From: Clostridiales bacterium
GTDB taxonomy: Bacteria > Bacillota > Clostridia > Christensenellales > UBA1242
Reading direction: 5' to 3'
DNA length: 64,000 bases
Assembly (NCBI GenBank): GCA_015055605.1
Contig: SVHV01000002.1
Span: 24,049 to 88,048, forward strand
Positions 28,005 to 42,551 of the stretch are shown here, in pieces. Under the pieces are notes generated by a model, which was not told the origin of the DNA, did no database searches, and saw nothing but the letters and a program-made list of their open reading frames with translations. A program made the position numbers and the translations under genes. How positions within the stretch are numbered: position 1 is the stretch's first letter; every line of letters begins with the position of its first letter.

Positions 28005-28042
28005 AAATAAGAACTAAAGTTTCGTATCTTTGAAACTAGCAA

Positions 28043-28076: not shown

Positions 28077-28134
28077 TTATCATTAACATCTTGTGCTAAA
28101 AGCAAAATATCATTTGCATATTGTTTTTTTTCGC

Positions 28135-28212
28135 TTATGTCAGATTATTGTAAAAATAAAAGGTTAAATATTCCAATGCCATTTTTTCAGCATAAATTTT
28201 ATCTGTGTTCAT
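28135..28212 (-). CDS. 25-codon ORF with a strong RBS, possibly the remnant of a longer gene
   Basis: AAGGAGAT, 6 nt, then ATG, giving MNTDKIYAEKMALEYLTFYFYNNLT*. After an A8 run, a further 21 codons are open in the +1 frame. Confidence 0.25.
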   Translation of the reverse strand: MNTDKIYAEKMALEYLTFYFYNNLT

Positions 28213-28305
28213 ATTTAATCTCCTTGTTTTAATTATACAACAAAGAAAAGAAAAAACACTCAACATAAAAACAAAAAAAGTGTCTATTTCAGACACTTAA
28301 TTTGT

Positions 28306-29196: not shown

Positions 29197-29206
29197 ATTT
29201 TCTCCA

Positions 29207-30772
29207 TCAAAGCATAGGTGCAAATATTCTGACAATTGCTCTAAACAATCTATTAAATAAATTTGTTTTAAGCATTTTAGGTGTTATTTCTATTGATTTA
29301 TTAAGAGTGTTATCAATATCGTTTTTCAAATCTTTTATACAATCACAATTATATAACCATACACCGTTTTCAAAGTGATGAACCAAACTTCTGTAATCAA
29401 GGTTGATTGTTCCTATTATAGCATATTTATCATCTGAAATATATGTTTTTGCGTGAATAAATCCCGGTTCATATTCATATATCTTGACGTTTGCATCTAA
29501 AAATCTCTTATAAAAACTTTTAGTCATATTAAAGACAATTTTCTTGTCAGGAATATGTGGAACTATTATTCTAACATCAACTCCACGAAGTGCAGCATTT
29601 TCGATACTTACACAAAGTTCATTATCAATAATTAGATAAGGTGTTGTGATGTAAACATATTTTGTTGCTGTTGCTAATATATTTTGAATTATAGTTTTTC
29701 CAACTCGCCACTTATATAACGGCTTTGGACCATCACCAAAAGGCACAATATATCCATTTTCTTTTATATCAATATTTGGATATAGATTGTCAGGAAGATT
29801 TAAAGGGGTTTTAAGATTAATACCAAAGTCGATTAAAAATAACTTTGTAAGTTCTTTTACACCCTCGCCTTCAAGTCTAATTCCTACATCTTTCCAGTGT
29901 CCAAATCTTTCAAATTCATTTATATATTCATCTGCAATGTTTATTCCACCAGTATATCCAATAATGCCATCTATGACAGTTATTTTTCTATGGTTTCTAT
30001 TATTAAATTCGTTATCTGCTTGACCTTTCATTCTTGAAAAAGGTGTTGCTTCAATTCCAAATTCTTTAAGTTGTTTTGCATAATTGCCGGGTAGTGTTGA
30101 CATACAACCAATATCATCAAAAGCAACTTTTATATCTAAACCTTGTTTTGCTTTTTCTTTTAGAATTTCTAAAATTGAATTCCAAAATTTACCTTCTTCA
30201 ATAATAAAATATTCTAAATATATAAACTTACAAGCATTTCTTAAATCTTCAAGCAATGCTTTGTGATATTCTTCACCACTAGGATAGTATGTTGTTTTTG
30301 TATTTGTAAATAAATGGGTATCAGCAATATTTATAAGTGTTTTTGCTTGGGTTAAAGCAATAGGACTTTCTTTTTCTAATTGTTCTAATAATTCTGTATC
30401 TTCTTGTTTATAAGATAAACTTTTTAAACTTTCTAATCTTTTAACATATTTCTTCTTTAATTTTCTTGAACCAAAAATAAAATATAGCATAAGACCGGCA
30501 ATGGGAATTATTAAAACAAAAAGCATCCAAGGTATTTTGTAATCTAGATTATCATCAGAAGCTATTATTTTAAGCACAACTGCAAAGGTCGTGATTCCTA
30601 CTGCAATATAAAAATATGGCACAAAGATACATAAAGCCATCGTGATGCCTATTATAGCCAAAACTTCAAATAGTGTGATTGCAAAAGCAATTATGTATCT
30701 AACAGGTATGTAATTTATTTCTCTTTCCTGAATCCTTCCATTTCCAAGGTCAATTTTGATTTTTCTTTTCAT
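29207..30772 (-). CDS. cls: Cardiolipin synthase
   Basis: Two N-terminal TM helices and two PLD HKD motifs (HRKITVIDG, HAKTYISDD). Confidence 0.9.
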   Translation of the reverse strand: MKRKIKIDLGNGRIQEREINYIPVRYIIAFAITLFEVLAIIGITMALCIFVPYFYIAVGITTFAVVLKIIASDDNLDYKIPWMLFVLIIPIAGLMLYFIFGSRKLKKKYVKRLESLKSLSYKQEDTELLEQLEKESPIALTQAKTLINIADTHLFTNTKTTYYPSGEEYHKALLEDLRNACKFIYLEYFIIEEGKFWNSILEILKEKAKQGLDIKVAFDDIGCMSTLPGNYAKQLKEFGIEATPFSRMKGQADNEFNNRNHRKITVIDGIIGYTGGINIADEYINEFERFGHWKDVGIRLEGEGVKELTKLFLIDFGINLKTPLNLPDNLYPNIDIKENGYIVPFGDGPKPLYKWRVGKTIIQNILATATKYVYITTPYLIIDNELCVSIENAALRGVDVRIIVPHIPDKKIVFNMTKSFYKRFLDANVKIYEYEPGFIHAKTYISDDKYAIIGTINLDYRSLVHHFENGVWLYNCDCIKDLKNDIDNTLNKSIEITPKMLKTNLFNRLFRAIVRIFAPML

Positions 30773-30794
30773 TATTTTTTCCTAAATACAACTC

Positions 30795-30821
30795 AAGCGA
30801 AGCAAGTTTTTTGCTTCGCTT
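30795..30821. other. 11-bp perfect intercistronic hairpin between the ABC permease and cls
   Basis: AAGCGAAGCAA-GTTTT-TTGCTTCGCTT. There is no U-tract on the coding (minus) strand, so I do not call it a terminator. Confidence 0.5.
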
Positions 30822-30826
30822 AAATT

Positions 30827-31630
30827 TTATACTAAACTAGATTTTTCAAGAATTGCTTTACTACCAAAGCCAATTCCAATACTAAATAAAGCAGAACCCA
30901 CTAAACAAAGTATTACATTAACTATTGTGCTGTTAAGTGGTGTGATAATTGGTATCATCATAAACATAAGCATTCCAATAGCAAAAGCCATAATTAGTGA
31001 TAGCCATAATTTTTGTTTTGCAAATACACTAGCTAAAACATAAATTGATGAGAAAATCCCAACCAATAATATTTTTGATAGCATACACATTACAACATTT
31101 AGAGCAGTTGCTCCTTCTAATGCAAATGGTAGTCCAGCTATAGCGCCACCAATCATAGAACCTATAAAGAATGCTACTATCATACTAGCACCTGCAATAA
31201 AGCATACTACTGATTTAGATATAACATAATCACTCTTCTTACTTCTTACTGTAAATAAATTTTTTGCATAACCACTACTAAAATCAGCGCCAACAAATAA
31301 GCAAACAAATATTGAGATTATAAAGAACATCATATTTATATTACACATACTGGTAATATCCATACTCATTGTTTGTTCGCCTCCACTTACAGCTCCAATG
31401 ATTTGCCAAACATTTTTAAATCCTTCCATCACAGTCTCTGCACCTGTCTGTGGATTGACTGAAACTGTTACGTCCATCATTGTTGTCATAACCAAAATTA
31501 AGATTGGCATAACAAGCGAAGCACCTATCATAATGTAAAAGAGTGAAGATGTAAACATTCTTCTAAAATCTACACCAAGCATACTTGTCAATCTTTTTTT
31601 GAATGAGTTGTTTTCAAATGTTACAGACAT
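30827..31630 (-). CDS. ABC-2-type permease (copy 2)
   Basis: Six TM helices, and a paralogue of 32550-33371 (FKKRLTSMLGVDFRRMF versus FGKRIKGMLSVDFYRLF). The start is ATG 31630 after GGAGGG. The longer N-terminus in the ORF track is really the tail of the upstream ATPase read in another frame. Confidence 0.8.
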   Translation of the reverse strand: MSVTFENNSFKKRLTSMLGVDFRRMFTSSLFYIMIGASLVMPILILVMTTMMDVTVSVNPQTGAETVMEGFKNVWQIIGAVSGGEQTMSMDITSMCNINMMFFIISIFVCLFVGADFSSGYAKNLFTVRSKKSDYVISKSVVCFIAGASMIVAFFIGSMIGGAIAGLPFALEGATALNVVMCMLSKILLVGIFSSIYVLASVFAKQKLWLSLIMAFAIGMLMFMMIPIITPLNSTIVNVILCLVGSALFSIGIGFGSKAILEKSSLV

Positions 31631-31631
31631 A

Positions 31632-31826
31632 TTATCTTCCCTCCTTGTTTGCCATAAGGTTAATATAATATTCTTCAAGACCGATTTTGTCTGTTTTAAG
31701 TTCATTAACAATTATTTCATTATCATATAAGTATTTTACAACTTCTTCTGGGCTTTCGGCATCATAAACTCTTAAATTTTCTTTTTGTTCATCTTCTAAA
31801 ACTTTTGAATATTTTTTATTTAAGAT
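31632..31826 (-). other. Detached C-terminal domain of the ABC ATPase, in the same frame just after the premature TAA
   Basis: Hand translation gives ILNKKYSKVLEDEQKENLRVYDAESPEEVVKYLYDNEIIVNELKTDKIGLEEYYINLMANKEGR*. This aligns with the tail of the paralogue 33373-34275 (...LLKKKYKNVREEQEYVRVYDEEDVDGIVKYLLDNNIIPSEIKKNKVGLEEYYIELMSNQEVK*). Confidence 0.85.
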
Positions 31827-32537
31827 TTATTTTGCATTTTTCATATCTTTTGTTTGAATTGCTACGAATGTTGGGCAAGTGTTTTCAAGTTCTTCAGATG
31901 TCATTTCTACAATCATTTTTCCACCACGAATAATGCCATAGTGAGTAGCAATTTTTTCAAGTTCTCCAAGTATGTGAGAAGAAACAAGGATTGTTACACC
32001 TGAACTAGCAAGGTCAGTTAGTATTTCTCTCATAATTCTCATACCATCAGCATCAAGTCCATTTATTGGTTCATCTAATACCAAAAGTTTAGGATTTCCA
32101 AGTAGTGCCATAGCAATACCAATTCTTTGTTTCATACCAAGAGAACAATTCTTATATTTATTTCCGGCAGAACCTTCCATTCTAACCATAGTTAAAACTT
32201 TTCTTACAGCATCTTCTTTGTTTACTATACTTAAATTTGTTGCTTGTATCATTAAGTTATTCCAAACCGTTAAATTTGGAAAACAGCCCGGGGCTTCAAT
32301 TAAAACCCCCATACTTGCTCTAACATCAGAGTCGGTATAATCTCTATCATACAACTTTATACTTCCACTTGTAGGGTGAATAAGTCCACAAATAATTTTT
32401 TCAGTTGTAGATTTACCACTTCCGTTTTCTCCAATAAATCCATAAATTGAGCCCATAGGAACGGTCATATTTAGTCCTGCAAGTGCTTGTTTTTCACCAA
32501 AGTTTTTACATAAATTTCTAATTTCTATTGCATTCAT
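31827..32537 (-). CDS. ABC transporter ATP-binding protein (copy 2), truncated by an in-frame TAA
   Basis: Walker A GENGSGKST, signature LGMKQR, Walker B LLVLDEP and the H-loop SSHIL. It is 236 aa against 300 aa for the paralogue. Confidence 0.85.
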   Translation of the reverse strand: MNAIEIRNLCKNFGEKQALAGLNMTVPMGSIYGFIGENGSGKSTTEKIICGLIHPTSGSIKLYDRDYTDSDVRASMGVLIEAPGCFPNLTVWNNLMIQATNLSIVNKEDAVRKVLTMVRMEGSAGNKYKNCSLGMKQRIGIAMALLGNPKLLVLDEPINGLDADGMRIMREILTDLASSGVTILVSSHILGELEKIATHYGIIRGGKMIVEMTSEELENTCPTFVAIQTKDMKNAK

Positions 32538-32549
32538 AAACCATTCCTC

Positions 32550-33371
32550 CTAATACACATCACTCTTATTTAGAATATAAGTGCCAATTAAGTTATAAAT
32601 AACAGCCCAAGCAACAGAACAAATAAAACATATAATCACAGATAGGAAATTGCTAGATAAACAAGCAAAAACAGATGAGCCATACAAGAAAATATTAAGT
32701 ATAGCAGAATTGCCAAGTATTGCAGCTGCTCCTATAATTAAAATACCTGTTCCAAAAAAGAATGAAGAAGCGATTGAAATCCAAAAATATTTTCTAAAAA
32801 TAATGTTTAAGAAAACATAAAGACTAGCCCAACCTAAACTCATCAGTAATTTTCCAAGTAATGCACAAATAAGAGAACCAAAATTTACTGAAAAAGATAG
32901 TCCAACAAGTGCTCCTGCAAGTATTGTTCCTAATAAGTATGTAATACACATTGAGGCCATTGCAAAAGCACAAGTAAGAGATTTACTCATCATATAGTCT
33001 TGCTTTTTAGCGTGAGTTGTGAATAATTGCTTTACATAGCCACTTTTATAGTCGTGACCAATAAAGATAGAAACCATTATTCCACCAAATATAAACACCA
33101 TATTCATATTTGCGTATTGACCAATGTCTTTAACAACATAAAGTGGACTTTCTACTGCAATAGCTTGCCAAACATTAGTAAATAGTGCTCCAGTTTGACT
33201 TCCTTCCATTCCAGTAGTTCCGATAATCATTGCAGGAATAATAGCAGCTATTGCTAAAAATATGTAAAACAAATGAGTATGAAATAATCTATAAAAGTCA
33301 ACCGATAACATTCCTTTAATTCTTTTGCCAAAGCTAGGAGTATCAAATTTTAAATTGTTTGAATTTTGCAT
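32550..33371 (-). CDS. ABC-2-type permease (copy 1)
   Basis: Six TM helices. Its ATG lies 1 nt after the stop of the upstream ATPase. Confidence 0.8.
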   Translation of the reverse strand: MQNSNNLKFDTPSFGKRIKGMLSVDFYRLFHTHLFYIFLAIAAIIPAMIIGTTGMEGSQTGALFTNVWQAIAVESPLYVVKDIGQYANMNMVFIFGGIMVSIFIGHDYKSGYVKQLFTTHAKKQDYMMSKSLTCAFAMASMCITYLLGTILAGALVGLSFSVNFGSLICALLGKLLMSLGWASLYVFLNIIFRKYFWISIASSFFFGTGILIIGAAAILGNSAILNIFLYGSSVFACLSSNFLSVIICFICSVAWAVIYNLIGTYILNKSDVY

Positions 33372-33372
33372 A

Positions 33373-34275
33373 CTATTTTACCTCCTGGTTTGACATAAGT
33401 TCAATATAATATTCTTCAAGACCTACTTTATTTTTCTTAATTTCGCTTGGAATAATGTTGTTATCTAATAAATATTTCACAATTCCATCAACATCTTCTT
33501 CATCATAAACTCTAACATATTCTTGTTCTTCACGAACATTTTTATATTTCTTTTTAAGCAGTGTTATTGCCTTTGCTATTTCATCAACTTTAAAAGACAC
33601 AAAAACCCTTGCTCTTGATTCCATTTCTTTTGCAGTTAGTTCTTGTATCATTTTGCCTTGACGGATAATTCCGTAATGTGTAGCAATTTTTTCAAGTTCG
33701 CCAAGTATATGAGATGAAATTAAAACTGTGCAGTTATAATTTTGCGTAATATCTACTAAAATTTCCCTCATAATTCTCATACCGTCAGTATCTAACCCGT
33801 TTATTGGTTCGTCCAAAATTAGTAGTGCAGGACTTCCAAGAAGCGCCATAGCAATACCAACTCTTTGTTTCATACCAAGTGAACATTTTTTGAATTTAAG
33901 TTCTTTGTTTTGTTCCATTCTAACAATTTTTAGAACTCTATCAATTTCTTCATCAGCATTATCAAGTCCTAAATTTAAGCATTGCATTTTAAGGTTCATA
34001 TAAATACTAGAACCCGGAAAACAGCCAGCATTTTCTATAAGTGCTCCAACTCTTACACGAGTTCCAGCATCTGTGTAATCTTTGCCAAACAACTTAATTG
34101 TTCCACTATCTTTAACCAAATGTCCACAAATAAGTTTTTCGGTTGTAGATTTTCCACTTCCATTTTCACCAATAAAACCATAAATAGAACCAACAGGAAC
34201 TGTCATATTAAGTCCATTAAGTGCATACATACCACGAAATGACTTTTTTAATCCTTTTATTTCTATTGCATTCAT
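33373..34275 (-). CDS. ABC transporter ATP-binding protein (copy 1), full length with a C-terminal accessory domain
   Basis: Walker A GENGSGKST, LGMKQR, LLILDEP and SSHIL, followed by a tail of about 65 aa. Confidence 0.9.
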   Translation of the reverse strand: MNAIEIKGLKKSFRGMYALNGLNMTVPVGSIYGFIGENGSGKSTTEKLICGHLVKDSGTIKLFGKDYTDAGTRVRVGALIENAGCFPGSSIYMNLKMQCLNLGLDNADEEIDRVLKIVRMEQNKELKFKKCSLGMKQRVGIAMALLGSPALLILDEPINGLDTDGMRIMREILVDITQNYNCTVLISSHILGELEKIATHYGIIRQGKMIQELTAKEMESRARVFVSFKVDEIAKAITLLKKKYKNVREEQEYVRVYDEEDVDGIVKYLLDNNIIPSEIKKNKVGLEEYYIELMSNQEVK

Positions 34276-34290
34276 ATATGACTCCTAGAT

Positions 34291-34668
34291 TTATTTTTTC
34301 TTCTTTTCTACTTTTGCTGCCTCGTATCTTTCGTTTGCAAGTTTTATTCTTTCATTTGCTTCTTCAATTTGTTTCTTTTGTTCTTCACGAGTTTTAGCTG
34401 TTCTTTCAGCTGGGCTTATATGGGCATCGTCCCAAGATTGTTTTGCTTGAGCCTTTGCTCTTGCCAATGAATTAGTAAATCTATTTTCTTCAAAGTTAGC
34501 CTTTGCTTCTGCCTTTGCAGCTGCAAAATTTGCTTTGTCTACTTCGTGTTGTGCCTTTGCACTTTCGCCCATATCTTTAAACGCTTTCTTTAAACCTCTT
34601 CCAGCCTTTTTAAAGATGTTGTCTTTTTTTTCTACTTTTTCTTCCACTTCTACTTTTTCGTCTGCCAT
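34291..34668 (-). CDS. Lys/Ala/Glu-rich, probably helical, small protein; first gene of the ABC/cls operon
   Basis: 125 aa with an AAGGAGA RBS. No TM helix and a low-complexity charged sequence. Confidence 0.6.
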   Translation of the reverse strand: MADEKVEVEEKVEKKDNIFKKAGRGLKKAFKDMGESAKAQHEVDKANFAAAKAEAKANFEENRFTNSLARAKAQAKQSWDDAHISPAERTAKTREEQKKQIEEANERIKLANERYEAAKVEKKKK

Positions 34669-34866
34669 AAATTTATTCTCCTTTAATTTCTAAATTTTAG
34701 TCAGGCATTATTCCAACACTTGACTTCCTAATAAAATTATAGTAAATTGTTTTTGGATTTACAACGAATAAAAAAAATGTACACACCACAAAAAAAGACA
34801 CTTTGTTGGGATAATAAAATTAACACAACAAACCGTCAAAATTTGTTGAAATAATAAGGAGTATAT

Positions 34867-35409
34867 ATGAATATAAAAAACAATTTAAGGTATAAAGCGA
34901 GTAGTGAAAAAATTGAAACTGCTTTTTTAACTTTAATTTTAAATCACAAATACGAAGATATAACTACCAGTCAAATTTGTAAACAAGCCGGAGTTAATCG
35001 TAGCACTTTTTATTGTCACTATAATGATATAAACGATTTAATAATAAAAATTGAAGGTAAATTTGCAAAAGGTATGGCAAGTATATTTAACTATGGCGAA
35101 AGACAAACTCATGAAGCATTTGTTGAGATGTTTACTTTTGTTAGAGATAATAAGTATTTTTACAGAGCTTTTTTAAATATTCCTTATGCAACTCTTGCTG
35201 AAACCAACACAAAACTTGAAGTTCTCGAAAATATAGGTAAAAATAGCCAAATTGACAAATCAAAAACTATGGCAATTTATTATCGTGCAAGTTTCTTCGG
35301 TGCAGGAATTAAAGAGATGTGCAGATTATGGCTTGAAAATGATTGCAAAGAAACACCAGAACAAATGGCAAGTTTACTCATTGAAGAATATAAAAATAGA
35401 GAATGCTAA
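34867..35409 (+). CDS. TetR/AcrR-family transcriptional regulator
   Basis: N-terminal HTH ITTSQICKQAGVNRSTFYCHYNDINDL. Transcribed divergently from the ABC operon. Confidence 0.85.
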   Translation: MNIKNNLRYKASSEKIETAFLTLILNHKYEDITTSQICKQAGVNRSTFYCHYNDINDLIIKIEGKFAKGMASIFNYGERQTHEAFVEMFTFVRDNKYFYRAFLNIPYATLAETNTKLEVLENIGKNSQIDKSKTMAIYYRASFFGAGIKEMCRLWLENDCKETPEQMASLLIEEYKNREC

Positions 35410-35505
35410 AATTTCGTTTGGCACTAAGACTTGTGCTTGTCTTGATACAAGTGCTCTCGCTTTGCTCGAGCAGACAAGCACACTCTACAACTAAATAAAT
35501 GAAAT

Positions 35506-35550
35506 CAAAAAGCGAAAGTGTTGGTAAATGTAACACACTTTCGCTTTTTG
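35506..35550. terminator. Bidirectional terminator
   Basis: AGCGAAAGTGT, a 13-nt loop, then ACACTTTCGCT, flanked by AAAA and TTTTT. Confidence 0.6.
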
Positions 35551-35566
35551 TTATTCTTTTATTTTT

Positions 35567-36031
35567 TTAAATTCCCCAGAATTTTCTAGAGCAATTAACC
35601 TGCCCACTAAATACCACACCGTTTGCCCAAGGTATGTATTTATCCAAATCATCTAGTTTGACAAACTTCCTGTCTGATGTTTCCCATTTTTGCTCAAACT
35701 CTAGCACATCTTTTAATCTAGCAGTATAACGAAGTTGATAGTAAATATCGCTATCATTCTCCACAACCTCAACAGCACCTATATAGTGCATATCCCTTAT
35801 TGTCACACAAGCCTCTTCCATAACCTCTCTTTCTAGAGTTTCAGTAAAACTTTCACCCTCTTCTGGGTGACCTCCAGGAACTGTCCACTTGTCACCGATT
35901 TTCACTATTAGTAATTCATTATTTTCATTAAAAATATAGCCAGTCACCTGAGTATATTTTTCTCCAGATAATTCAAACCCCTCACACCATGCAATCTTGC
36001 AGGTTTTAGATAACTTTTCGTACTCTTTCAT
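35567..36031 (-). CDS. NUDIX hydrolase
   Basis: Nudix box GGHPEEGESFTETLEREVMEEACV. ATG 36031 follows AGAGG. Confidence 0.85.
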   Translation of the reverse strand: MKEYEKLSKTCKIAWCEGFELSGEKYTQVTGYIFNENNELLIVKIGDKWTVPGGHPEEGESFTETLEREVMEEACVTIRDMHYIGAVEVVENDSDIYYQLRYTARLKDVLEFEQKWETSDRKFVKLDDLDKYIPWANGVVFSGQVNCSRKFWGI

Positions 36032-36167
36032 AAGCACCTCTCTACCATTATATTACCACACAAGACAAACTTCACAAAACAAACAACACTTTGTTTTTTT
36101 AATAAAACACATTACATTTGACATAGAACAACTAGAGTGATACTGTATTTATAATAGGAGAATATAT

Positions 36168-36638
36168 ATGAATATCGAATATGAATATAGTTTCAAGGTT
36201 AACTCTCTAGAGCCATTCTTTGAATATTGTAAGGATAATGGATTTACCCAAACAGATAGGTTTGAGCAAATCAGAACTATATACAAAAACACAAACAATA
36301 CTATTGCTAGAACTACTATAAAAAAGTATGAAAATACCCAAGAAAAATGGCTAGACTTTAAGCAAGACCACGAAGTAGGTGCTACGGTCCTAAAAGAACT
36401 AAGAGAAAGTTCACCGCTCCAATACTGGGACGAAACAGCAGTAGATTCTATTCTTGAATTTTTGGGCTATCAAAAACATATCACAACACTCAGAACTAGA
36501 ACCGTTTATGAAAAAGACGGTGTCATATTTGAGTTTGACGAGTTTACATCTCCAGAAGTAGCAAAAGTGGTATCAGTTGAGGGAGAAAAAGAACTTGTAG
36601 ACCGTTTATACAACGAAATCAAAGATATTGAGAATTAA
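36168..36638 (+). CDS. Possible CYTH-domain (CyaB/triphosphate tunnel) protein
   Basis: N-terminal IEYEYSFKV (compare the CYTH ExExK motif) and C-terminal VIFEFDEF...VVSVEGE (compare ...lD.v..lG.fvEiE). The match is weak and based on pattern only. Confidence 0.45.
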   Translation: MNIEYEYSFKVNSLEPFFEYCKDNGFTQTDRFEQIRTIYKNTNNTIARTTIKKYENTQEKWLDFKQDHEVGATVLKELRESSPLQYWDETAVDSILEFLGYQKHITTLRTRTVYEKDGVIFEFDEFTSPEVAKVVSVEGEKELVDRLYNEIKDIEN

Positions 36639-36712
36639 ACTCTTCCTTTGATTTACTTGCAACTAGAGTGGATTTTATTTTATATTATAATAAATAATGT
36701 ATGGAGGTTTCT

Positions 36713-37825
36713 ATGGCAAAAGTTAAACCTTATAAAATAATCTTAAGTGTAATTGCTGGTATTTTAGCACTAATTATCCTAGTGGCATCATCTTATCTAA
36801 TATATATTTGTGCACAATACTACAGAATAGAGGATAATCAAGACATACAAATCAAAAACAACCAAACAACTACCGTATCCTTAGAGGAAGAATATAGTAT
36901 CGCTACATATAATATAGGTTTCGGAGCATACACACACGACTTTTCCTTCTTTATGGATAGTGGCGAGAGAAAAAATGGCGAAAAAGTAACAGGTAAAGAT
37001 AGTGTTGCCAAAGACAAAGCAACTGTCGAGACTAATACCACAGGCTCTATTAATACCATCAAAGAAAAGAATGTGGACTTTGCACTTTTTCAAGAGGTGG
37101 ACATAGAGGCTACTAGAAGTCACAAATATAACCAACTAGAGCATATCGAGAGAGAATTTCCAAACCTATCTTCTTCCACCTCTCTAAACTTCCACTCAGC
37201 ATTCCTCTTTTATCCGATATTTGAACCTCACGGCAAAACCACTGCAGGAATAGTAACACTAAGCAAATACAACATCTCAAAGGCAACCAGACGCTCGCTA
37301 CCTATTGACGAGAGTTTTCCAACTAAATTCTTTGACCTAGATAGATGCATACAAGTCACAAGATTACCTATCAGTTCCTGTGAAAAAGAGTTGGTTATAA
37401 TCAATGCTCACCTTAGCGCTTATGACGAGGGCGGAATTATCAGAAAACAACAATTAGAGTTCCTAAACAATATCCTTGCAGAGGAATATTCTGCGGGTAA
37501 TTATGTAGTTGTTGGTGGGGACTTTAATCACGATATTGCAAATAGTAGCGATATTTGGGAGAGCGACTTCAAAAAACCCGAGTGGGTATATTCTCTAGAC
37601 AATAGCAATCTCACTACTGGATATAGATTTGTTTCCTCTACTAACGCACCAACCTGTAGAGCAACAGATATAAATTATATAAAAGGTGAGACCTACACCG
37701 TTGTTATTGATGGCTTTATATGTTCAGACAATGTAGAAACAGTATCTATCGAAAATATCGACACAGACTTTATGTACTCTGACCACAACCCATCTCTACT
37801 AAAATTTAAACTAAAAACAATCTAA
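36713..37825 (+). CDS. Membrane-anchored endonuclease/exonuclease/phosphatase (EEP) family protein
   Basis: An N-terminal TM helix, then the EEP motifs ATYNIG, LFQEVD, GGDFNHD and SDHNP. ATG 36713 follows GGAGG. Confidence 0.8.
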   Translation: MAKVKPYKIILSVIAGILALIILVASSYLIYICAQYYRIEDNQDIQIKNNQTTTVSLEEEYSIATYNIGFGAYTHDFSFFMDSGERKNGEKVTGKDSVAKDKATVETNTTGSINTIKEKNVDFALFQEVDIEATRSHKYNQLEHIEREFPNLSSSTSLNFHSAFLFYPIFEPHGKTTAGIVTLSKYNISKATRRSLPIDESFPTKFFDLDRCIQVTRLPISSCEKELVIINAHLSAYDEGGIIRKQQLEFLNNILAEEYSAGNYVVVGGDFNHDIANSSDIWESDFKKPEWVYSLDNSNLTTGYRFVSSTNAPTCRATDINYIKGETYTVVIDGFICSDNVETVSIENIDTDFMYSDHNPSLLKFKLKTI

Positions 37826-37830
37826 AACAA

Positions 37831-37860
37831 AAAAGACTAAGCAATACTTAGTCTTTTTTA
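37831..37860 (+). terminator. Rho-independent terminator
   Basis: AAGACTAAG-CAATA-CTTAGTCTT followed by TTTTA. Confidence 0.65.
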
Positions 37861-38033
37861 GTGGACTACAGATTTTCGATTACAACAAATATATTGATTA
37901 ACCTATATATACTTATTACAGCAACTGCCCACATCCAACTCAATATCATCTTAAAACATTTAGGTTACATCTTGAAATGAGTATTTCAATATGTTATACT
38001 ACTTGCAGTTTAAACGGGAAGGGGTAAAATATT

Positions 38034-38579
38034 ATGGCAAAAAGAGAAGTTCAAGACTATCTTACAAAGGTAGAAAGAAATAGAGAAAGAGCAGACAGTG
38101 CAGAACTTGCTGCTAAACTATTCACAGGCATTACTGCCGGTGTAACAATGTTTGCCGGTCTTATGGGGGCTACAGGTGAAGTTTCTGCAGAAATAGGCTA
38201 CAATTTCTTAAAAGAAGATGTCGTTATCAATAGCAGTTTTGATGCAGAAGTTGTTGCTAAAAGAAATGCGCTAGTAGACCAACTAACAGCAGGAACTATT
38301 AGCATGGACGAATACAATGCAGGTATGGATAGTTTATATTCTAGAGACGCAGTAGTGGACTTTGCAAAAAGGTCTGGAGATAAAAGACTTGAAAATTTGG
38401 CTAGTTCCTATGAATCTACAAAAGATATGGGAGACACAGTAACAAAAGAAGGTATACCAACAATGCTTGCTTTCACAGGCGCTGGTGCTGCTGCGTGGAC
38501 TGTATCTGAAATAATCAAGAGAAAATACGATAGAAAAATAAGAGAGTACAAGGCTCAACAAGAAAAAGAGTGTATGTAA
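38034..38579 (+). CDS. Hypothetical protein with two hydrophobic Gly/Ala-rich segments
   Basis: 181-aa ORF with a GGAAGGGG RBS. No family recognised. Confidence 0.55.
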   Translation: MAKREVQDYLTKVERNRERADSAELAAKLFTGITAGVTMFAGLMGATGEVSAEIGYNFLKEDVVINSSFDAEVVAKRNALVDQLTAGTISMDEYNAGMDSLYSRDAVVDFAKRSGDKRLENLASSYESTKDMGDTVTKEGIPTMLAFTGAGAAAWTVSEIIKRKYDRKIREYKAQQEKECM

Positions 38580-38581
38580 AG

Positions 38582-38614
38582 AAAAACGACTAGTTGAATC
38601 TAGTCGTTTTTTAT
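38582..38614. terminator. Bidirectional terminator
   Basis: ACGACTAG-TTGAAT-CTAGTCGT, flanked by AAAA and TTTTTT. Confidence 0.6.
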
Positions 38615-38626
38615 TTTTCACACATA

Positions 38627-39178
38627 CTAATCAATAGAGATTTCTTCGTCTAATATAGAATATGTCGCAACATCATATCTAGCATGATAATTGTTTTTTC
38701 CAGCTTTTCTAAGAACTCCCTCAAATGTCATGCCAGCCCTCTTCATAACATTACCACTCTTAATATTCTCAACATCATGCTGAAGAACAATTCTCTTTGC
38801 AATCCCCTGTGACTTAATATATTTAAACATTCCCAGTAGTGCCTCTGTCATATAGCCATAGCCTTGAAATTTAGGATTAAGAACATATCCTATTTGGACC
38901 TCGCCCTCATTAGACTGCTTATATGAAACAATGCCGATAGAACCTATCACCCTACCCATATCTTTATGTTCAATACAGTAGTCATTAAGAACTTCGTTTT
39001 TTAGATAATCTTCTTTTACACAGGCAATTCTAGTTTTTGCTACCTCTAAAGAAGTGTATGTTGGGAACGATAAAAACTTAGTAACATCACTATCACTAGC
39101 ATATTCATATAAATCTATATAATCTTTATCTTCCCATTGACGAACAATTAGTCTATCTGTTTCATAAAGTATTGTCAT
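38627..39178 (-). CDS. GNAT-family N-acetyltransferase (RimJ/RimL-like)
   Basis: N-terminal YETDRLIVRQW and the acetyl-CoA motif QGYGYMTEAL, 183 aa. Confidence 0.8.
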   Translation of the reverse strand: MTILYETDRLIVRQWEDKDYIDLYEYASDSDVTKFLSFPTYTSLEVAKTRIACVKEDYLKNEVLNDYCIEHKDMGRVIGSIGIVSYKQSNEGEVQIGYVLNPKFQGYGYMTEALLGMFKYIKSQGIAKRIVLQHDVENIKSGNVMKRAGMTFEGVLRKAGKNNYHARYDVATYSILDEEISID

Positions 39179-39325
39179 AATATTACCTCTCGGTTGATTG
39201 TATCACACATTACAAACTTTACAAATTAATTGAGCATATAGAACTAAGATATTTTTTCGCAAAACAAAAGAAGGACACTTAATATAAGTGCCCTTCTTTA
39301 AATACTTTAACATTTATGTCAACTA

Positions 39326-40057
39326 TTATTTATCCATAGCAGACTCATTACTCATCATTTGTTCTTTTATCTTGTCTGCAATATTTATTGTTTGCATCTC
39401 ATCGCTGTCCAAAGCATAATGCAATAATGGGGTTCTCAACACTTTACTATCAAACATTGACCTCAAGAACTCTTGCTGTTGAGCCAAATCCATATCCATA
39501 AGAGATATAGAACCATTCTTGCTATCATACTCATAAATAGGCAAATCTACTTGCATCTGCTCTGCAATCATATACTTTGCAAGGAGTGCATAAAGTCTAT
39601 TTCTATCATTACTAGACGAAGAATAGAATAAACCGACAATGTCTTCTGGAGATATAGTGATATTTACTTCATTCATAACCCCAGAGGTGTGCTTTTCTCT
39701 AATATTAGATACTAACTCATCTAAATCTGCCAAACTCTCCCCAAAAGCATAAAAATCACCATTAGCCTTATTTCCACAACTACTAGAGTCTGTCTCAGAA
39801 ATATGCTCAATCTCTGCTGTATCTCCGTTAATCATAAAACCTATTGACTTATATGTAGGCACATCAACTCCTGGCACCAAAAGTGTCGAAGATGCTGATG
39901 TTAGCCCATCTGGACTTTGTGCTAGAGCAATTTCTCCTGCCCATGTAGAAAAATCATAAGCGAAATTAGAACCATCTACCCTAGTAATTCTTGGCCAATC
40001 CATAGCCCTCACTATCAATCTATTTTTCTCATATAATTCATCAATACTGTCTGCCAT
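39326..40057 (-). CDS. Hypothetical protein
   Basis: 243-aa ORF from ATG 40057 after GAAGGAG. No motif recognised. Confidence 0.55.
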   Translation of the reverse strand: MADSIDELYEKNRLIVRAMDWPRITRVDGSNFAYDFSTWAGEIALAQSPDGLTSASSTLLVPGVDVPTYKSIGFMINGDTAEIEHISETDSSSCGNKANGDFYAFGESLADLDELVSNIREKHTSGVMNEVNITISPEDIVGLFYSSSSNDRNRLYALLAKYMIAEQMQVDLPIYEYDSKNGSISLMDMDLAQQQEFLRSMFDSKVLRTPLLHYALDSDEMQTINIADKIKEQMMSNESAMDK

Positions 40058-40187
40058 AAACACTCCTTCTTTACCAGCAAATCACTTTGTTTTTTTATTC
40101 TTATTACCATAATAATAACATACAATAGCTAAGTTACAAATACTTCTACCAAAAAAACATACAAAAAATATGATTTATATAGCAAAA

Positions 40188-40211
40188 AGAACACCCTACT
40201 ATAGGTGTTCT
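40188..40211 (-). terminator. Orphan copy (A) of the AGAACACC...GGTGTTCT hairpin family
   Basis: The minus strand reads AGAACACC-TATAGTAG-GGTGTTCT followed by TTTTTG. No minus-strand gene ends just upstream of it. Confidence 0.45.
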
Positions 40212-40512
40212 CAACCACAAAAAAACAAGCCCGATAAAGGAAACTTGTTTTTTGGGTGCGGGCTGTTGTATCTCAGTTGAACCAATGTTTTATGGCTTGA
40301 ATTAGGGCTTTGTTATTTTAAATAAATTGAAAAATTTTGAATTTTTGTATTTTTATGACATATAAGATATTGATAAATCTGAAAGTCATGATACACTAAG
40401 CAAAACTTAATAAATTAAATAAATTCAAAGGTTGGAGAGAATTGTGTTTTCTTCAACCTTTTGTACTTCAAATACAAAAAATAAATGCATTTTTCAAAAG
40501 GGGGGTGGTATA

Positions 40513-40794
40513 ATGGGAGCAGGTGGAGTAACTAATCATGGAACTTATGATATTGAAGCTAGAAAACTAGAACCTATCTACAAACCAAATTCTAAAGTTA
40601 ATCGTTATGAAAATGGTGAAAAGAAACAAAGTAGATGGTATGGTCCAGACGGAAAAGCTGTAAGAAACAGAGATTATTCACATACAAGTAATGGAAAAGT
40701 ACCATTTCCCCATGACCATGCTTGGAATTGGAACAATCCAATGCCAAGGGGTAAAGAGCATTTAGAACCAGATTATGAAAATTTTAAAGACTAG
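40513..40794 (+). CDS. Small Gly/His/Trp/Asn-rich protein, a possible orphan toxin-like module
   Basis: 93 aa from ATG 40513 (GGGGGTGG RBS): ...NRYENGEKKQSRWYGPDGKAVRNRDYSHTSNGKVPFPHDHAWNW... No signal peptide. The next gene starts 8 nt downstream. Confidence 0.5.
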   Translation: MGAGGVTNHGTYDIEARKLEPIYKPNSKVNRYENGEKKQSRWYGPDGKAVRNRDYSHTSNGKVPFPHDHAWNWNNPMPRGKEHLEPDYENFKD

Positions 40795-40802
40795 GAGTAA
40801 TA

Positions 40803-41342
40803 ATGAAAGAACAAACTCAATTTAAATGGGAAAAACAAAATAAAAATATTTTAGGATTCAATTTGAAAGACTTTAAATATTTTAAGTATGACGACCCGAA
40901 TGAAAAAACAAATATTAAAAAATGTGATGTTTGTGATAACCCTTGCTTAATTGATGAGTTTGGAAATGGTAAATGCAATAATTGTTCTTGGGAACAAGGT
41001 GGTAGTTCTCTAGAATTAAAATATAAAGTTGGATACCCTAATTTAATACCATTATCTAAAGCAAAAAAATTGTATAAATTCAATAAACTTTTTAATCCCG
41101 ATTTTGAAGATTTTATTAATAATTTATTGTTCTATGGAGAAATGGAATTTGAATATAAAAATTTTAAGTATGTAGTAGACAGATATACTGACAAATTCGA
41201 GATACAAATCTGCAAAGTTAATGATTATGAAAATAGACAAAGTTATAAAAGTATTGATGAATTTATATCAAAAGCTAAAATTGATAATAAATTACTTAAA
41301 GATATTTGGGAAGACATAACAAATGTTAATTGGCAATCTTAA
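40803..41342 (+). CDS. CPCC-like zinc-ribbon protein, a possible cognate immunity or antidote partner
   Basis: CDVCDNPCLIDEFGNGKCNNCSWEQGG resembles the Cys-rich CPCC pattern (C-x2-C ... C-x2-C-x-WE). The AGGAG RBS lies inside the end of the upstream gene. Confidence 0.55.
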   Translation: MKEQTQFKWEKQNKNILGFNLKDFKYFKYDDPNEKTNIKKCDVCDNPCLIDEFGNGKCNNCSWEQGGSSLELKYKVGYPNLIPLSKAKKLYKFNKLFNPDFEDFINNLLFYGEMEFEYKNFKYVVDRYTDKFEIQICKVNDYENRQSYKSIDEFISKAKIDNKLLKDIWEDITNVNWQS

Positions 41343-41420: not shown

Positions 41421-41547
41421 TTGGCGCAGAGACCGGGATTCGCATTAACCGACAGCGTCAATTGTCGCAAACATTCTTGCGACTACAAAGGGGCACCCGG
41501 GTTCGTTTTTGTATAAACAAAAAAGAACACCCTACTGTGGGTGTTCT
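41421..41547. repeat. Direct repeat copy B: tRNA-Ser 3' end fragment, a 90-nt arm and a terminator hairpin
   Basis: TTGGCGCAGAGACCGGGATTCGCATTAAC... 41421-41531 matches 42328-42438 at 109 of 111 positions. The hairpin AGAACACCC-TACTGT-GGGTGTTCT lies at 41524-41547. Confidence 0.9.
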
Positions 41548-41552
41548 TAAAA

Positions 41553-42260
41553 TCACCTACGATTACTCATAATATCCCATGGGGTAATAATCCCCAAAAC
41601 CCTTTCTTGTGGTTTTCCGTTTTGGGTTATAAAAACCATAGCCAACCTTTTATTTTCTTCAAATTTTTGTTGAAACAATTCTCTAACATCTTCCAATAAA
41701 CAGTCTTTTTTTACAAACTCAAAACATTCAGATGCACGATTATTAATTTGTGAATATTTAGCAATTAGTTCATCTGAAAATGTTGTCTTATCTTTTTCAT
41801 ATATTAACTCATCTTCTATCAACGCACCAAAAAGAGTATTTTCACTAAAAACCCCTTTTAAAACACCATTTTCTAAAATAGGTACATGTGTATAAACTTT
41901 TTCTTTCATTTTTTTCATATACGGAAATATTAACTCATTGCCAGTCGCAGCACAAACATCTATTATTTTCACACAGGAATCATAAGCTTTAGGTGGATTA
42001 TCAATATAACTAATCACATTGTCCAACAAAATAATTACATCGTTGGATGGTTGAATAGGATATTCCTCACCTGTTTTTTTATGAGACAAAAAATTCCTTA
42101 TTTTACGAATAAATTCAAGTTCCTCTTTTAATTGTCTAAATTGAGGATATCTTGAAATTTGGCTCACAGCACCCTCTCTACCTATCTCGATATTGAATTT
42201 TTCATTTAATAATTTCTCTAATATATTATATTTATTAATTAAAATTTCTGCATTAGTCAT
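41553..42260 (-). CDS. HEPN-like (RNxxxH) N-terminal domain fused to a CBS pair
   Basis: 235 aa from ATG 42260 (AGGTG RBS): MTNAEILINKYNILEKLL...ELEFIRKIRNFLSHKK... (Rx4H), then two CBS-like modules (THVPILENGVLKGVFSE; RVLGIITPWDIM). The extra 39 codons in the ORF track run into the repeat and are unlikely to be real. Confidence 0.65.
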   Translation of the reverse strand: MTNAEILINKYNILEKLLNEKFNIEIGREGAVSQISRYPQFRQLKEELEFIRKIRNFLSHKKTGEEYPIQPSNDVIILLDNVISYIDNPPKAYDSCVKIIDVCAATGNELIFPYMKKMKEKVYTHVPILENGVLKGVFSENTLFGALIEDELIYEKDKTTFSDELIAKYSQINNRASECFEFVKKDCLLEDVRELFQQKFEENKRLAMVFITQNGKPQERVLGIITPWDIMSNRR

Positions 42261-42327
42261 AATTTCACACCTAAAATAATAAAACTGTTTTATATCATAA
42301 AAAAGCCCCATAAAGGGAACTTGTTTT

Positions 42328-42454
42328 TTGGCGCAGAGACCGGGATTCGCATTAAGCGACAGCGTCAATTGTCGCAAACATTCTTGCGACTACAAAGGGG
42401 CACTCGGGTTCGTTTTTGTATAAACAAAAAAGAACACCTAACCTTAGGTGTTCT
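42328..42454. repeat. Direct repeat copy C, immediately 3' of the tRNA
   Basis: Same unit as 41421-41547, with substitutions at 42356 (G versus C) and 42404 (T versus C). The hairpin AGAACACCT-AACCTT-AGGTGTTCT lies at 42431-42454. Confidence 0.9.
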
Positions 42455-42463
42455 AAATTCCGG

Positions 42464-42551
42464 TGGCGCAGAGACCGGGATTCGAACCCGGGGTACATCG
42501 CTGTACACAGCCGTTCCAAGACTGCACGATCGACCACTCTGACATCTCTGC
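42464..42551 (-). tRNA. tRNA-Ser (anticodon GGA), class II, with encoded CCA
   Basis: The minus strand reads GCAGAGATGTCAGAGTGGTCGATCGTGCAGTCTTGGAACGGCTGTGTACAGCGATGTACCCCGGGTTCGAATCCCGGTCTCTGCGCCA. The acceptor stem is 7 bp (GCAGAGA/TCTCTGC). The anticodon arm is CAGTC-TTGGAAC-GGCTG. The long variable arm is GTACA-GCGA-TGTAC. The T arm is CCGGG-TTCGAAT-CCCGG. The D-stem pairs poorly in my hand fold. Confidence 0.85.

What the first reader, a model, noticed from the sequence alone, without database searches (positions are those of the whole stretch)
41553..42260. The cassette cargo is a HEPN-like (RNxxxH) domain fused to a CBS pair, a candidate ligand-gated RNase effector
The N-terminal region of about 95 aa ends in ELEFIRKIRNFLSH. 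This is the Rx4-6H signature, and specifically the hRNxxxH form, which defines HEPN RNase domains such as Abi-type, Swt1-like, Csm6/Csx1 and Cas13 domains. The C-terminal region of about 130 aa reads as two CBS modules (THVPILENGVLKGVFSE... and ...RVLGIITPWDIM). CBS pairs are known adenosyl-nucleotide sensors. A HEPN domain joined to a nucleotide-sensing domain is the logic of CARF-HEPN and SAVED-type effectors, but I do not know of a characterised HEPN-CBS architecture. The gene has its own AGGTG RBS and terminator. It is far more AT-rich than the flanking hydrogenase operon. It sits alone between att-like repeats beside a tRNA, which is the typical context of a defence or addiction cargo gene. 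No partner gene (antitoxin or cyclase) is visible inside the cassette.
Basis: inference. Interest (0 to 1): 0.7.

Follow-up and report, generated by a model that had tools for sequence, protein, structure and literature searches.

The report
HEPN-like RNase domain fused to CBS pair
This 235-residue protein joins a probable HEPN-type RNA-cutting domain to a nucleotide-sensing CBS pair, so it is most likely a ligand-switched RNase used in phage defence; a protein with the same two domains in the opposite order was recently shown to defend E. coli, which makes this an uncharacterised variant rather than a new kind of system.

Summary
The gene is real: window 41553-42260, minus strand, 235 aa, with an AGGTG ribosome-binding site and an intrinsic terminator.

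- **CBS pair.** The C-terminal half is a confident CBS pair (Pfam above cut-off; Foldseek E about 1e-7).
- **HEPN-like domain.** The N-terminal 92 aa model as an all-helical bundle. R55 and H60 are invariant in 150 of 150 family representatives, N56 in 145 and E15 in 146. The motif sits at the end of a helix, as in HEPN RNases. No profile or structure search reached significance, so HEPN membership rests on motif and topology.
- **Family.** It is sizeable (at least 309 50%-identity clusters at E<=1e-10) and scattered across gut and rumen Clostridia, Coriobacteriia and other phyla. There is no conserved partner gene.
- **Neighbourhood.** Eight of 10 homologue neighbourhoods looked up carry restriction-modification or other defence genes within 5 kb; five carry Type I R-M. 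The window copy has none.
- **Flanks.** The 130-nt repeats, each containing the 21-nt 3' end of tRNA-Ser, are confirmed. No integrase is nearby.
- **Prior work.** HEPN-CBS fusions were predicted in 2013. The E. coli CBS-HEPN protein DS-11 was validated as an anti-phage system in 2025-26. This family has the reverse domain order and no detectable HEPN sequence homology to DS-11.

The parts
41553..42260 (-). CDS of the 235-aa HEPN-like/CBS-pair protein (stop codon included)
   Evidence: Homologues start at the same MTNAE/MSNAE position, so the 235-aa start is preferred over the 252- and 274-aa calls.
41985..42260 (-). N-terminal helical domain (residues 1-92), HEPN-like
   Evidence: AF2 model with pLDDT 92; helices at 3-22, 31-35, 39-60 and 73-87. 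Sub-threshold, motif-registered hits to DUF4145, HepT-like, HEPN_Swt1 and HEPN_RiboL-PSP.
42081..42098 (-). Codons for R55-N56-F-L-S-H60, the Rx4H motif
   Evidence: R55 and H60 are invariant in 150/150 family representatives, and N56 in 145/150. The motif lies at the C-terminal end of helix 39-60.
42202..42218 (-). Codons for E15-K-L-L-N19, at the position of the family's Ex3[K/R] motif
   Evidence: E15 is present in 146/150 (D in the other 4). Position 19 is K or R in 94/150, but N in the window protein.
41556..41975 (-). CBS pair (Bateman module), residues about 96-235
   Evidence: Pfam CBS at 29.2 bits against a cut-off of 24. Foldseek hits to CBS pairs at E about 1e-7, TM(target) 0.69-0.74, including AMP-, ATP- and SAM-bound structures. 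The PDB profile search found only CBS proteins. G223-x-x-T226-x-x-D229 is conserved.
42268..42272 (-). AGGTG ribosome-binding site, 7 nt upstream of the ATG
   Evidence: Read from the sequence.
41523..41548 (-). Intrinsic-terminator-like hairpin after the stop codon, lying inside repeat copy 1
42303..42322 (-). Terminator-like hairpin upstream of the gene, separating it from tRNA-Ser transcription
   Evidence: A similar sequence occurs at 40223-40255.
42328..42457 (-). 130-nt direct repeat, copy 2: terminator hairpin, about 80 nt, then the 21-nt tRNA 3' end
41421..41550 (-). 130-nt direct repeat, copy 1, 94% identical to copy 2
42464..42551 (-). tRNA-Ser(GGA); its last 21 nt are repeated at 42329-42349 and 41422-41442

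Best explanation
The gene encodes a stand-alone, single-polypeptide, ligand-gated RNase. Residues 1-92 form a minimal HEPN-type domain whose predicted active site is built from E15, R55, N56 and H60. Residues about 96-235 form a CBS pair (Bateman module).

The proposed mechanism, which is inferred, runs as follows. CBS pairs dimerise and bind adenine-nucleotide derivatives in the cleft lined by Y123, T124, H125, P127 and the G-x-x-[ST]-x-x-D strands. HEPN RNases are active only as dimers that bring two Rx4H motifs together. Ligand occupancy of the CBS dimer would therefore set the geometry of the two N-terminal HEPN domains. That would switch on metal-independent RNA cleavage and stop translation and growth.

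The most likely biological role is phage defence by abortive infection or growth arrest. The protein often travels with restriction-modification systems. This matches the E. coli CBS-HEPN protein DS-11.

Shown here: the domain content, the motif conservation, the predicted fold topology, the absence of a partner gene and the defence-island neighbourhoods of homologues. Inferred: dimerisation, the identity of the ligand, RNase activity and the defence phenotype.
For: **CBS pair.** Pfam scores above cut-off. Foldseek gives E about 1e-7 to many nucleotide-bound Bateman modules. The PDB profile search finds only CBS proteins.

**HEPN features as defined in PMC3710099.**
- Rx4-6H is present, with R55 and H60 in 150/150 representatives.
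- The residue after R is polar (N56 in 145/150).
- An upstream acidic Ex3[KR] motif is present (E15 in 146/150; K/R19 in 94/150).
- The motif sits at the end of a helix and is followed by a loop and a final helix, in a confident all-alpha model with pLDDT 92.

**Weak hits, all in register with the motif.** These are HepT toxin 6m6w, HepT-like at E 1.6e-3, HEPN_RiboL-PSP, HEPN_Swt1 and DUF4145. Among Foldseek hits, the HEPN proteins HepT (TM 0.42) and Csm6' (TM 0.40) are among the best by TM-score.

**Link to DS-11.** The CBS part aligns to the DS-11 CBS pair at 90.8% hhalign probability. That alignment places Y123 opposite DS-11 Y157, whose mutation abolishes defence. The DS-11 mutants R330A and H335A, in its RNxxxH motif, also abolish defence.

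**Neighbourhoods.** Eight of 10 homologue contexts looked up have defence genes within 5 kb:
- Type I R-M in five.
- GmrSD/HNH with a PHP-SMC ATPase.
- Schlafen-type helicases with MazG-like.
- PglZ with an SNF2 helicase.

Collinsella loci sit next to SNF2-DUF4391-methylase or AbiD.

**Distribution.** The family is patchy across phyla: Bacillota, Actinomycetota, Saccharibacteria, Spirochaetales, Anaerolineaceae and Lentimicrobiaceae.
Against: No search gave a statistically significant match of the N-domain to any HEPN family:
- Every Pfam hit to a HEPN-clan family is below its gathering score.
- The best named HEPN hit in the PDB profile search has E=4.
- All Foldseek TM-scores are below 0.5.
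- hhalign against the DS-11 HEPN domain gives P=0.006 over 36 columns. Two of 60 block-shuffled controls reached that score, so the match is carried mostly by the motif.

In the window itself there is no defence gene and no integrase within 16 kb on the left. The hydrogenase operon lies on the right. Two homologue contexts (P0007, P0022) and locus L043 are purely housekeeping. Most neighbours in 32 non-redundant GTDB contexts are ordinary metabolic genes.

The window protein has N rather than K/R at position 19. PADLOC has no model that hits the protein. No homologue is found on viral contigs, which says nothing either way.
Confidence: 0.6

Rival explanations
1. It is a housekeeping or stress-response RNase rather than an immune effector. 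The CBS pair would read the cell's adenylate energy charge, or SAM or c-di-AMP, and tune bulk RNA stability, for example during starvation or sporulation. This is what Anantharaman et al. 2013 proposed for HEPN-CBS fusions.
For: The 2013 prediction appears in PMC3710099. Several homologues sit among housekeeping genes. Examples are the sigF/spoIIA operon with gyrase, AsnA and a 5'-nucleotidase-like HAD protein 9 nt upstream, and amylase with alcohol dehydrogenase. The gene is present, with shared neighbourhoods, in 23 Collinsella-lineage (Coriobacteriia) species genomes, which suggests vertical retention. The window copy lies next to a hydrogenase operon and has no defence neighbours.
Against: Defence genes lie within 5 kb in 8 of 10 sampled contexts, including five independent Type I R-M adjacencies. 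The distribution is patchy and crosses phyla. The Collinsella synteny block is itself an SNF2-DUF4391-methylase or AbiD island. The only characterised protein with this domain pair is a defence system.
Confidence: 0.22
2. It is a non-catalytic regulator. The N-terminal helical bundle would be a dimerisation or nucleic-acid-binding module, and the protein would act as a ligand-responsive transcriptional or translational regulator. JGI's automatic name for two homologues is 'predicted transcriptional regulator'.
For: The JGI names appear for P0019 and P0034. There is no significant HEPN match. Other CBS-pair regulators exist; the CBS pair of the CcpN repressor is among the Foldseek hits.
Against: No HTH or other DNA-binding family is detected in any of 33 members. 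Absolute invariance of R55 and H60 and near-invariance of N56 and E15, against 30-40% overall identity, is the signature of a catalytic site and not of a dimer interface. The JGI name is an automatic label typical for CBS-pair COGs.
Confidence: 0.08
3. It is a toxin of a toxin-antitoxin or addiction module. It would stabilise the repeat-flanked cassette, and its antitoxin would be missed, for example a small RNA or a tiny ORF.
For: HEPN toxins of HEPN-MNT pairs are common, and the weak profile hit is to the HepT toxin. The gene sits alone between 130-nt repeats next to a tRNA.
Against: No MNT or any other conserved neighbour exists in 80 loci (40 distinct neighbourhood groups); adjacent genes differ in strand, size and family. 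Only 40-70 nt of non-repeat DNA flank the gene inside the cassette. The CBS pair provides built-in regulation, which removes the need for an antitoxin.
Confidence: 0.05

Closest known systems
DS-11 (WP_000257686.1, E. coli), a single-protein CBS+HEPN anti-phage system from DefensePredictor (Science 2026, PMC13092281)
   Same: Both are one polypeptide with no partner gene, and both combine a CBS pair with an RNxxxH HEPN-type domain. The CBS parts align at 90.8% hhalign probability, with window Y123 opposite DS-11 Y157, the residue essential for defence. Both have an Ex3R-type helix upstream of the Rx4H motif. The proposed logic is the same: an adenine derivative bound by CBS gates the HEPN RNase.
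   Different: The domain order is reversed. DS-11 has a 130-aa N-terminal extension, then the CBS pair (residues 134-241), then a C-terminal HEPN of about 120 aa with a long insert. The window protein has a 92-aa N-terminal HEPN-like domain followed by the CBS pair, for 235 aa against 365 aa. There is no significant sequence similarity outside the CBS fold and the motif. DS-11 is found in Proteobacteria, while this family is in Gram-positive and other gut anaerobes. The two are most simply explained as independent fusions.
HEPN fused to CBS (with or without HD), Swt1-like/Abi2 group, in Anantharaman et al. 2013 (e.g. alr3009; gi 118580987 from Pelobacter propionicus)
   Same: These are predicted active HEPN domains joined to CBS nucleotide sensors. 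The authors proposed ligand-regulated RNA degradation.
   Different: The proteins were not available here for comparison, so their domain order and relation to this family are untested. Some also carry an HD phosphohydrolase domain, which is absent here.
HepT (DUF86) toxins of HEPN-MNT toxin-antitoxin systems (e.g. PDB 6m6u/6m6w)
   Same: Both are small helical domains with RNxxxH at the end of a helix followed by a terminal helix. HepT is the best named HEPN hit in both the PDB profile search and the Foldseek search.
   Different: The matches are not significant (E=4; TM 0.42). There is no MNT partner and no sign of AMPylation-type regulation. Control would come from a fused CBS pair instead.
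CARF-HEPN effectors (Csm6/Csx1) and other sensor-fused effectors
   Same: The logic is shared: a nucleotide-sensing domain fused to a HEPN RNase that acts as a dimer. Csm6 HEPN domains are among the weak Foldseek hits.
   Different: The sensor fold is different (CBS rather than CARF or SAVED). There is no CRISPR, CBASS or cyclase association in any neighbourhood examined.

Membership tests
HEPN superfamily (as defined in PMC3710099) | Conserved Rx4-6H motif with a polar residue (N, D or H) directly after the R | tested here: met
   R55 150/150, N56 145/150 and H60 150/150 across family representatives. All three are invariant in alignment A2.
HEPN superfamily (as defined in PMC3710099) | [quoted passage not shown] | tested here: met
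   AF2 models have pLDDT 90.7 and 92.2. Helix 39-60 ends with R55..H60 and is followed by loop 61-72 and helix 73-87. This is a prediction and not a solved structure.
HEPN superfamily (as defined in PMC3710099) | Upstream conserved acidic residue, typically Ex3[KR] | tested here: met
   E15 is present in 146/150 (D in 4). Position 19 is K or R in 94/150, but N in the window protein itself.
HEPN superfamily (as defined in PMC3710099) | Statistically significant profile or structural similarity to an established HEPN family | tested here: inconclusive
   All Pfam hits to HEPN-clan families are sub-threshold: HepT-like 1.6e-3, DUF4145 0.06, HEPN_Swt1 0.067 and HEPN_RiboL-PSP 0.029. The PDB profile search gives HepT at E=4. 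Foldseek TM is at most 0.42. hhalign against the DS-11 HEPN gives P=0.006, reached by 2 of 60 block shuffles. No competing fold was found.
HEPN superfamily (as defined in PMC3710099) | Metal-independent endoribonuclease activity dependent on R and H | not testable with these tools
   This needs biochemistry.
CBS pair / Bateman module | Two tandem CBS motifs forming the beta-alpha-beta-beta-alpha pair | tested here: met
   Pfam CBS at 29.2 bits (cut-off 24) with 2 stretches; all 33 members scanned match. Foldseek gives E 1e-7, TM(target) 0.69-0.74 and about 143-145 aligned columns to solved CBS pairs.
CBS pair / Bateman module | Ligand-site signature G-h-h-[ST]-x-x-D and h-x-P strand; actual nucleotide binding | tested here: inconclusive
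   The sequence signatures are present and conserved: P127 149/150, G136 145/150, G223 138/150, T226 133/150 and D229 134/150. Binding itself, and the ligand, cannot be tested here.
DS-11 family (CBS-HEPN defence protein) | Full-length homology and the same domain order (N-extension, CBS pair, C-terminal HEPN) | tested here: not met
   BLASTP finds no significant alignment. The order is reversed. Only the CBS part aligns. The HEPN parts align only around the motif.
DS-11 family (CBS-HEPN defence protein) | Anti-phage activity dependent on the HEPN R/H residues and the CBS tyrosine | not testable with these tools
   The equivalent residues are R55, H60 and Y123 (Y or F in 126/150).
HEPN-MNT type II/VII toxin-antitoxin | Adjacent minimal nucleotidyltransferase antitoxin gene | tested here: not met
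   The window cassette holds no second ORF. No neighbour is conserved across 80 loci.
Defence-island gene (guilt by association) | Recurrent co-location of homologues with known defence systems in unrelated genomes | tested here: met
   Eight of 10 sampled homologue contexts qualify, as do the Collinsella loci. The association is not universal, and it is not met for the window copy itself.
tRNA-integrated mobile cassette | Direct repeats containing the tRNA 3' end that bracket the cargo | tested here: met
   The 21-mer occurs 3 times against 0 expected. The 130-nt repeats are 94% identical.
tRNA-integrated mobile cassette | Cognate integrase, or evidence of presence/absence polymorphism or alternative cargo | tested here: not met
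   No recombinase domain is found in 19 ORFs across 24.6-41.3 kb. Repeat patterns were absent from the metagenome and viral collections. Other contigs end at the tRNA or repeat without giving information.

The most novel reading that the evidence does not exclude
This would be an independently evolved, minimal (235-aa) single-protein abortive-infection system of Gram-positive and other gut anaerobes. A 92-residue HEPN RNase would be gated by a CBS pair that senses a phage-induced nucleotide signal that is not yet known. The system would act as a back-up to Type I restriction-modification. In this genome it would be carried as an integrase-less cassette that is inserted or excised at tRNA-Ser by a recombinase acting in trans on the 130-nt repeats.
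Probability: 0.25. Interest if true: 0.7.

Novelty: new variant of a known kind. Interest (0 to 1): 0.45.

Why it matters
CBS pairs are among the most widespread small-molecule sensors, but their use in immunity has only just been shown, in one E. coli protein (DS-11). This second family is unrelated in sequence and has the domains in the opposite order. It is widespread in human and animal gut anaerobes and repeatedly parked beside Type I R-M systems. That pattern would indicate that 'CBS-gated HEPN RNase' is a convergent, general solution and not a one-off.

At 235 aa, with a 92-residue nuclease domain, the protein is an attractive minimal model. It could be used to study how ligand binding in a Bateman dimer switches a HEPN dimer on, and to identify the nucleotide that signals infection. 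It also fills an annotation gap. At least 309 50%-identity clusters are currently labelled only 'CBS domain-containing protein' or 'predicted transcriptional regulator'.

Tried and rejected
- **Sequence search of PDB with the protein.** No hit.
- **NCBIfam and PADLOC.** Nothing relevant.
- **Foldseek with the full model.** The CBS pair swamped the results. I therefore modelled the N-domain alone. Foldseek against PDB and BFVD then gave no significant hit.
- **Exhaustive HMM search with the N-domain profile.** It found 1602 cluster representatives, but the 150 shown all have the same architecture, about 230 aa for full-length entries. It did not reveal other architectures that could bridge to annotated HEPN families.
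- **hhalign of the N-domain against the DS-11 HEPN family.** The match is weak and carried by the motif. I rejected it as independent evidence.
- **DUF6548.** This is the most frequent sub-threshold Pfam hit (10/33 members; the family consensus gives E 2e-4). It has no literature, so it explains nothing.
- **Search for a conserved partner gene.** All-against-all clustering of neighbours in 80 loci found none.
- **Search for the 130-nt repeat elsewhere.** Two metagenome scans and one viral scan gave 0 matches. Cassette mobility therefore could not be tested.
- **RNA checks on the repeat.** The Rfam scan found only the tRNA. Folding of the roughly 100-nt non-hairpin part of each repeat copy is not better than shuffles, with z of -0.5 to -0.9. 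I rejected the idea that the repeat is a structured sRNA or tRNA-like gene.
- **Viral contigs.** No homologue.
- **Contigs sharing the hydrogenase gene.** They end at the tRNA or repeat with 100% identity, so no empty site is visible.
Full report
**1. Observation.**

The minus-strand ORF 41553-42260 encodes a 235-aa protein. The start is supported in two ways. An AGGTG site lies at 42268-42272, 7 nt upstream of the ATG. Homologues also begin at the same MTNAE/MSNAE position.

A terminator-like hairpin (41548-41523) follows the stop codon. Two more hairpins (42454-42431 and 42322-42303) lie between tRNA-Ser and the gene. The gene must therefore be transcribed from its own promoter in the roughly 40 nt upstream. 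A TGATATAAA extended -10-like sequence is there, but this is my reading only, because the consensus scan found no two-hexamer promoter.

The RNxxxH motif is at residues 55-60. A loop and a further helix follow it, so it is not at the end of the N-terminal region.

Gene GC is 0.288. The neighbouring hydrogenase genes are at 0.38 and the window as a whole at 0.342.

**2. The CBS half.**

Pfam CBS scores above its gathering cut-off with two stretches, and all 33 aligned homologues match it. The AF2 model of the whole protein is confident (pLDDT 90.7, pTM 0.82). Foldseek matches about 143-145 columns to solved CBS pairs at E about 1e-7 and TM(target) 0.69-0.74. Many of those structures are complexed with AMP, ADP, ATP or SAM. 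A profile search of PDB finds only CBS proteins. The strand motifs that line the nucleotide cleft are conserved: P127 149/150, G136 145/150, G223 138/150, T226 133/150 and D229 134/150.

**3. The N-terminal domain.**

Modelled alone with 23 sequences, it has pLDDT 92 and forms helices at 3-22, 31-35, 39-60 and 73-87. Across 150 full-length family sequences (the window protein and the retrieved family members 215-265 aa long), conservation is as follows:
- R55 and H60 are invariant.
- N56 is present in 145 of 150.
- E15 is present in 146 of 150, and D in the other 4.
- Position 19 is K or R in 94 of 150.

Anantharaman et al. 2013 (PMC3710099) define the HEPN active site by four features. [quoted passage not shown] All four are met.

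Statistical homology is not met:
- Pfam gives only sub-threshold hits. Several are to HEPN-clan families and all are in register with the motif: HepT-like 1.6e-3, HEPN_RiboL-PSP 0.029, HEPN_Swt1 0.067 and DUF4145 0.06-0.17. The uncharacterised DUF6548 also appears, in 10 of 33 members and at 2e-4 for the family consensus.
- The PDB profile search lists the HepT toxin 6m6w at E=4.
- Foldseek finds nothing significant in PDB or BFVD. HepT (TM 0.42) and Csm6' (TM 0.40) are among the best by TM-score.

I conclude that this is very probably a divergent minimal HEPN domain. The formal homology test is inconclusive, and no alternative fold emerged.

**4. Family and distribution.**

The word-indexed search found 41 clusters. 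The exhaustive HMM search with the N-domain profile found 1602 representatives at E<=1e-3 and 309 at E<=1e-10. The top 150 all match over the whole N-domain, and the full-length entries are about 230 aa. A scan of one genome per GTDB species found 144 relatives. These include Collinsella and other Coriobacteriia, Lachnospiraceae, Oscillospiraceae, Acutalibacteraceae, Ruminococcus, Christensenellaceae, Saccharibacteria, Spirochaetales, Anaerolineaceae and Lentimicrobiaceae, almost all from gut or rumen. No homologue is on IMG/VR viral contigs. The family is patchy, crosses phyla and is accessory.

**5. Neighbourhoods.**

Clustering the neighbours of 80 loci gave 40 distinct neighbourhood groups and no gene conserved across them. 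There is no antitoxin, cyclase or other obligate partner.

I looked up the annotated contexts of 10 homologues. Eight contain defence genes within 5 kb:

| Homologue | Defence genes nearby |
|---|---|
| P0002 | Type I hsdS plus shufflon-type recombinase |
| P0013 | KAP NTPase plus HsdR directly upstream |
| P0025 | HsdM/HsdS, GIY-YIG/DUF4357, DUF3800 |
| P0023 | HNH plus HsdMSR |
| P0031 | 39 nt downstream of HsdM-S-R |
| P0005 | radical SAM, PHP-SMC ATPase, GmrSD/HNH |
| P0019 | two Schlafen-type helicases, MazG-like |
| P0034 | PglZ plus SNF2 helicase, resolvases |

Collinsella loci lie beside SNF2-DUF4391-methylase or AbiD.

Two looked-up contexts are purely housekeeping, as is locus L043. 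In 32 non-redundant GTDB contexts most of the ±2 neighbours are metabolic genes. A minority are Type I or IIG R-M, DrmD/SNF2, MADS or AbiD.

The window copy has no defence neighbours. To the left are a small AT-rich gene pair, unknown ORFs, GNAT, Exo_endo_phos, NUDIX, TetR, ABC transporters and a PLD enzyme. To the right is the HydABC-type hydrogenase.

**6. The repeats.**

Two 130-nt direct repeats (41421-41550 and 42328-42457; 94% identical) bracket the gene. Read on the gene's strand, each consists of a terminator hairpin, about 80 nt, and a 21-mer identical to the 3' end of tRNA-Ser(GGA). That gives three copies of the 21-mer in the window against none expected. A decayed third junction lies at 40176-40255.

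The repeat is not an Rfam family and does not fold better than shuffles. No recombinase is encoded in the 19 ORFs examined between 24.6 and 41.3 kb. I could not find the repeat in other collections. The att-like architecture is therefore confirmed, but mobility is unproven.

**7. What is known.**

HEPN fused to CBS, with or without HD, was catalogued in 2013 within the Swt1-like/Abi2 group. [quoted passage not shown]

DefensePredictor (PMC13092281) validated DS-11 (WP_000257686.1, 365 aa) as a one-protein CBS+HEPN anti-phage system. The mutations R330A and H335A, in its RNxxxH motif, and Y157A, in its CBS domain, all abolish defence. AlphaFold3 predicts an ATP-bound dimer.

I compared the two families:
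- BLASTP finds nothing significant.
- The CBS parts align at 90.8% hhalign probability, with window Y123 opposite DS-11 Y157.
- The HEPN parts align over only 36 columns around the motif (P=0.006). Two of 60 block-shuffled controls reached that score.
- The domain order is reversed.
- DS-11 relatives are proteobacterial.

The window protein is therefore not a DS-11 family member. It very likely works like DS-11, and the two are most simply explained as independent fusions.

**8. Mechanism and verdict.**

The best-supported model (confidence 0.6) is a CBS-dimer-gated HEPN RNase that acts in phage defence or growth arrest and is frequently allied with Type I R-M. The rivals are:
- an energy or stress-sensing housekeeping RNase (0.22);
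- a non-catalytic regulator (0.08);
- a toxin with an unseen antitoxin (0.05).

Its novelty claim does not. The finding is an uncharacterised variant, with reversed domain order, of a kind that was predicted in 2013 and first validated in 2025-26.

Noticed in passing
window 40432-41342 (+): This is a very AT-rich gene pair (GC 0.24 for the second gene) in the next repeat-bounded unit. One ORF is 120 aa and contains ...RDYSHTSNGKVPFPHDHAWNW.... The other is 179 aa with weak Cys_rich_CPCC and DUF5382_C hits. The pair looks like an orphan toxin C-terminal module with an immunity-like partner.
   Followed up: partly
window 40176-40255: This is a third, decayed junction. Copies of the two terminator-like hairpins (similar to 42299-42331 and 41512-41550) lie adjacent, without the 80-nt segment or the 21-mer. 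It suggests a small array of cassettes accreted at tRNA-Ser.
   Followed up: partly
L099 and L100 (contigs carrying the identical hydrogenase gene): Both assemblies end inside tRNA-Ser or at the start of the 130-nt repeat, with 100% identity up to the break. This is compatible with strain heterogeneity or assembly trouble at this site.
   Followed up: partly
window 24662-40063: The left flank is a mix of accessory-looking genes: two NUDIX proteins, TetR, two ABC-transporter pairs, a PLD/cardiolipin-synthase-like protein, an Exo_endo_phos protein with a weak (sub-threshold) Gp5_C repeat hit, GNAT and several ORFs with no family. No integrase and no recognised defence system are present.
   Followed up: yes
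L001 9203-15175 and the related Collinsella loci: A conserved block of SNF2 helicase, DUF4391 and N6/N4 DNA methylase lies directly downstream of the Collinsella homologues. L051 has an AbiD/Abi_2 (HEPN-family) gene two ORFs upstream.
   Followed up: partly
Pfam DUF6548 (PF20185): This is the most frequent sub-threshold hit of the N-domain (10 of 33 members; the family consensus gives E 2e-4 over profile positions 2-89 of 164). It may itself be an unrecognised HEPN-like family.
   Followed up: no
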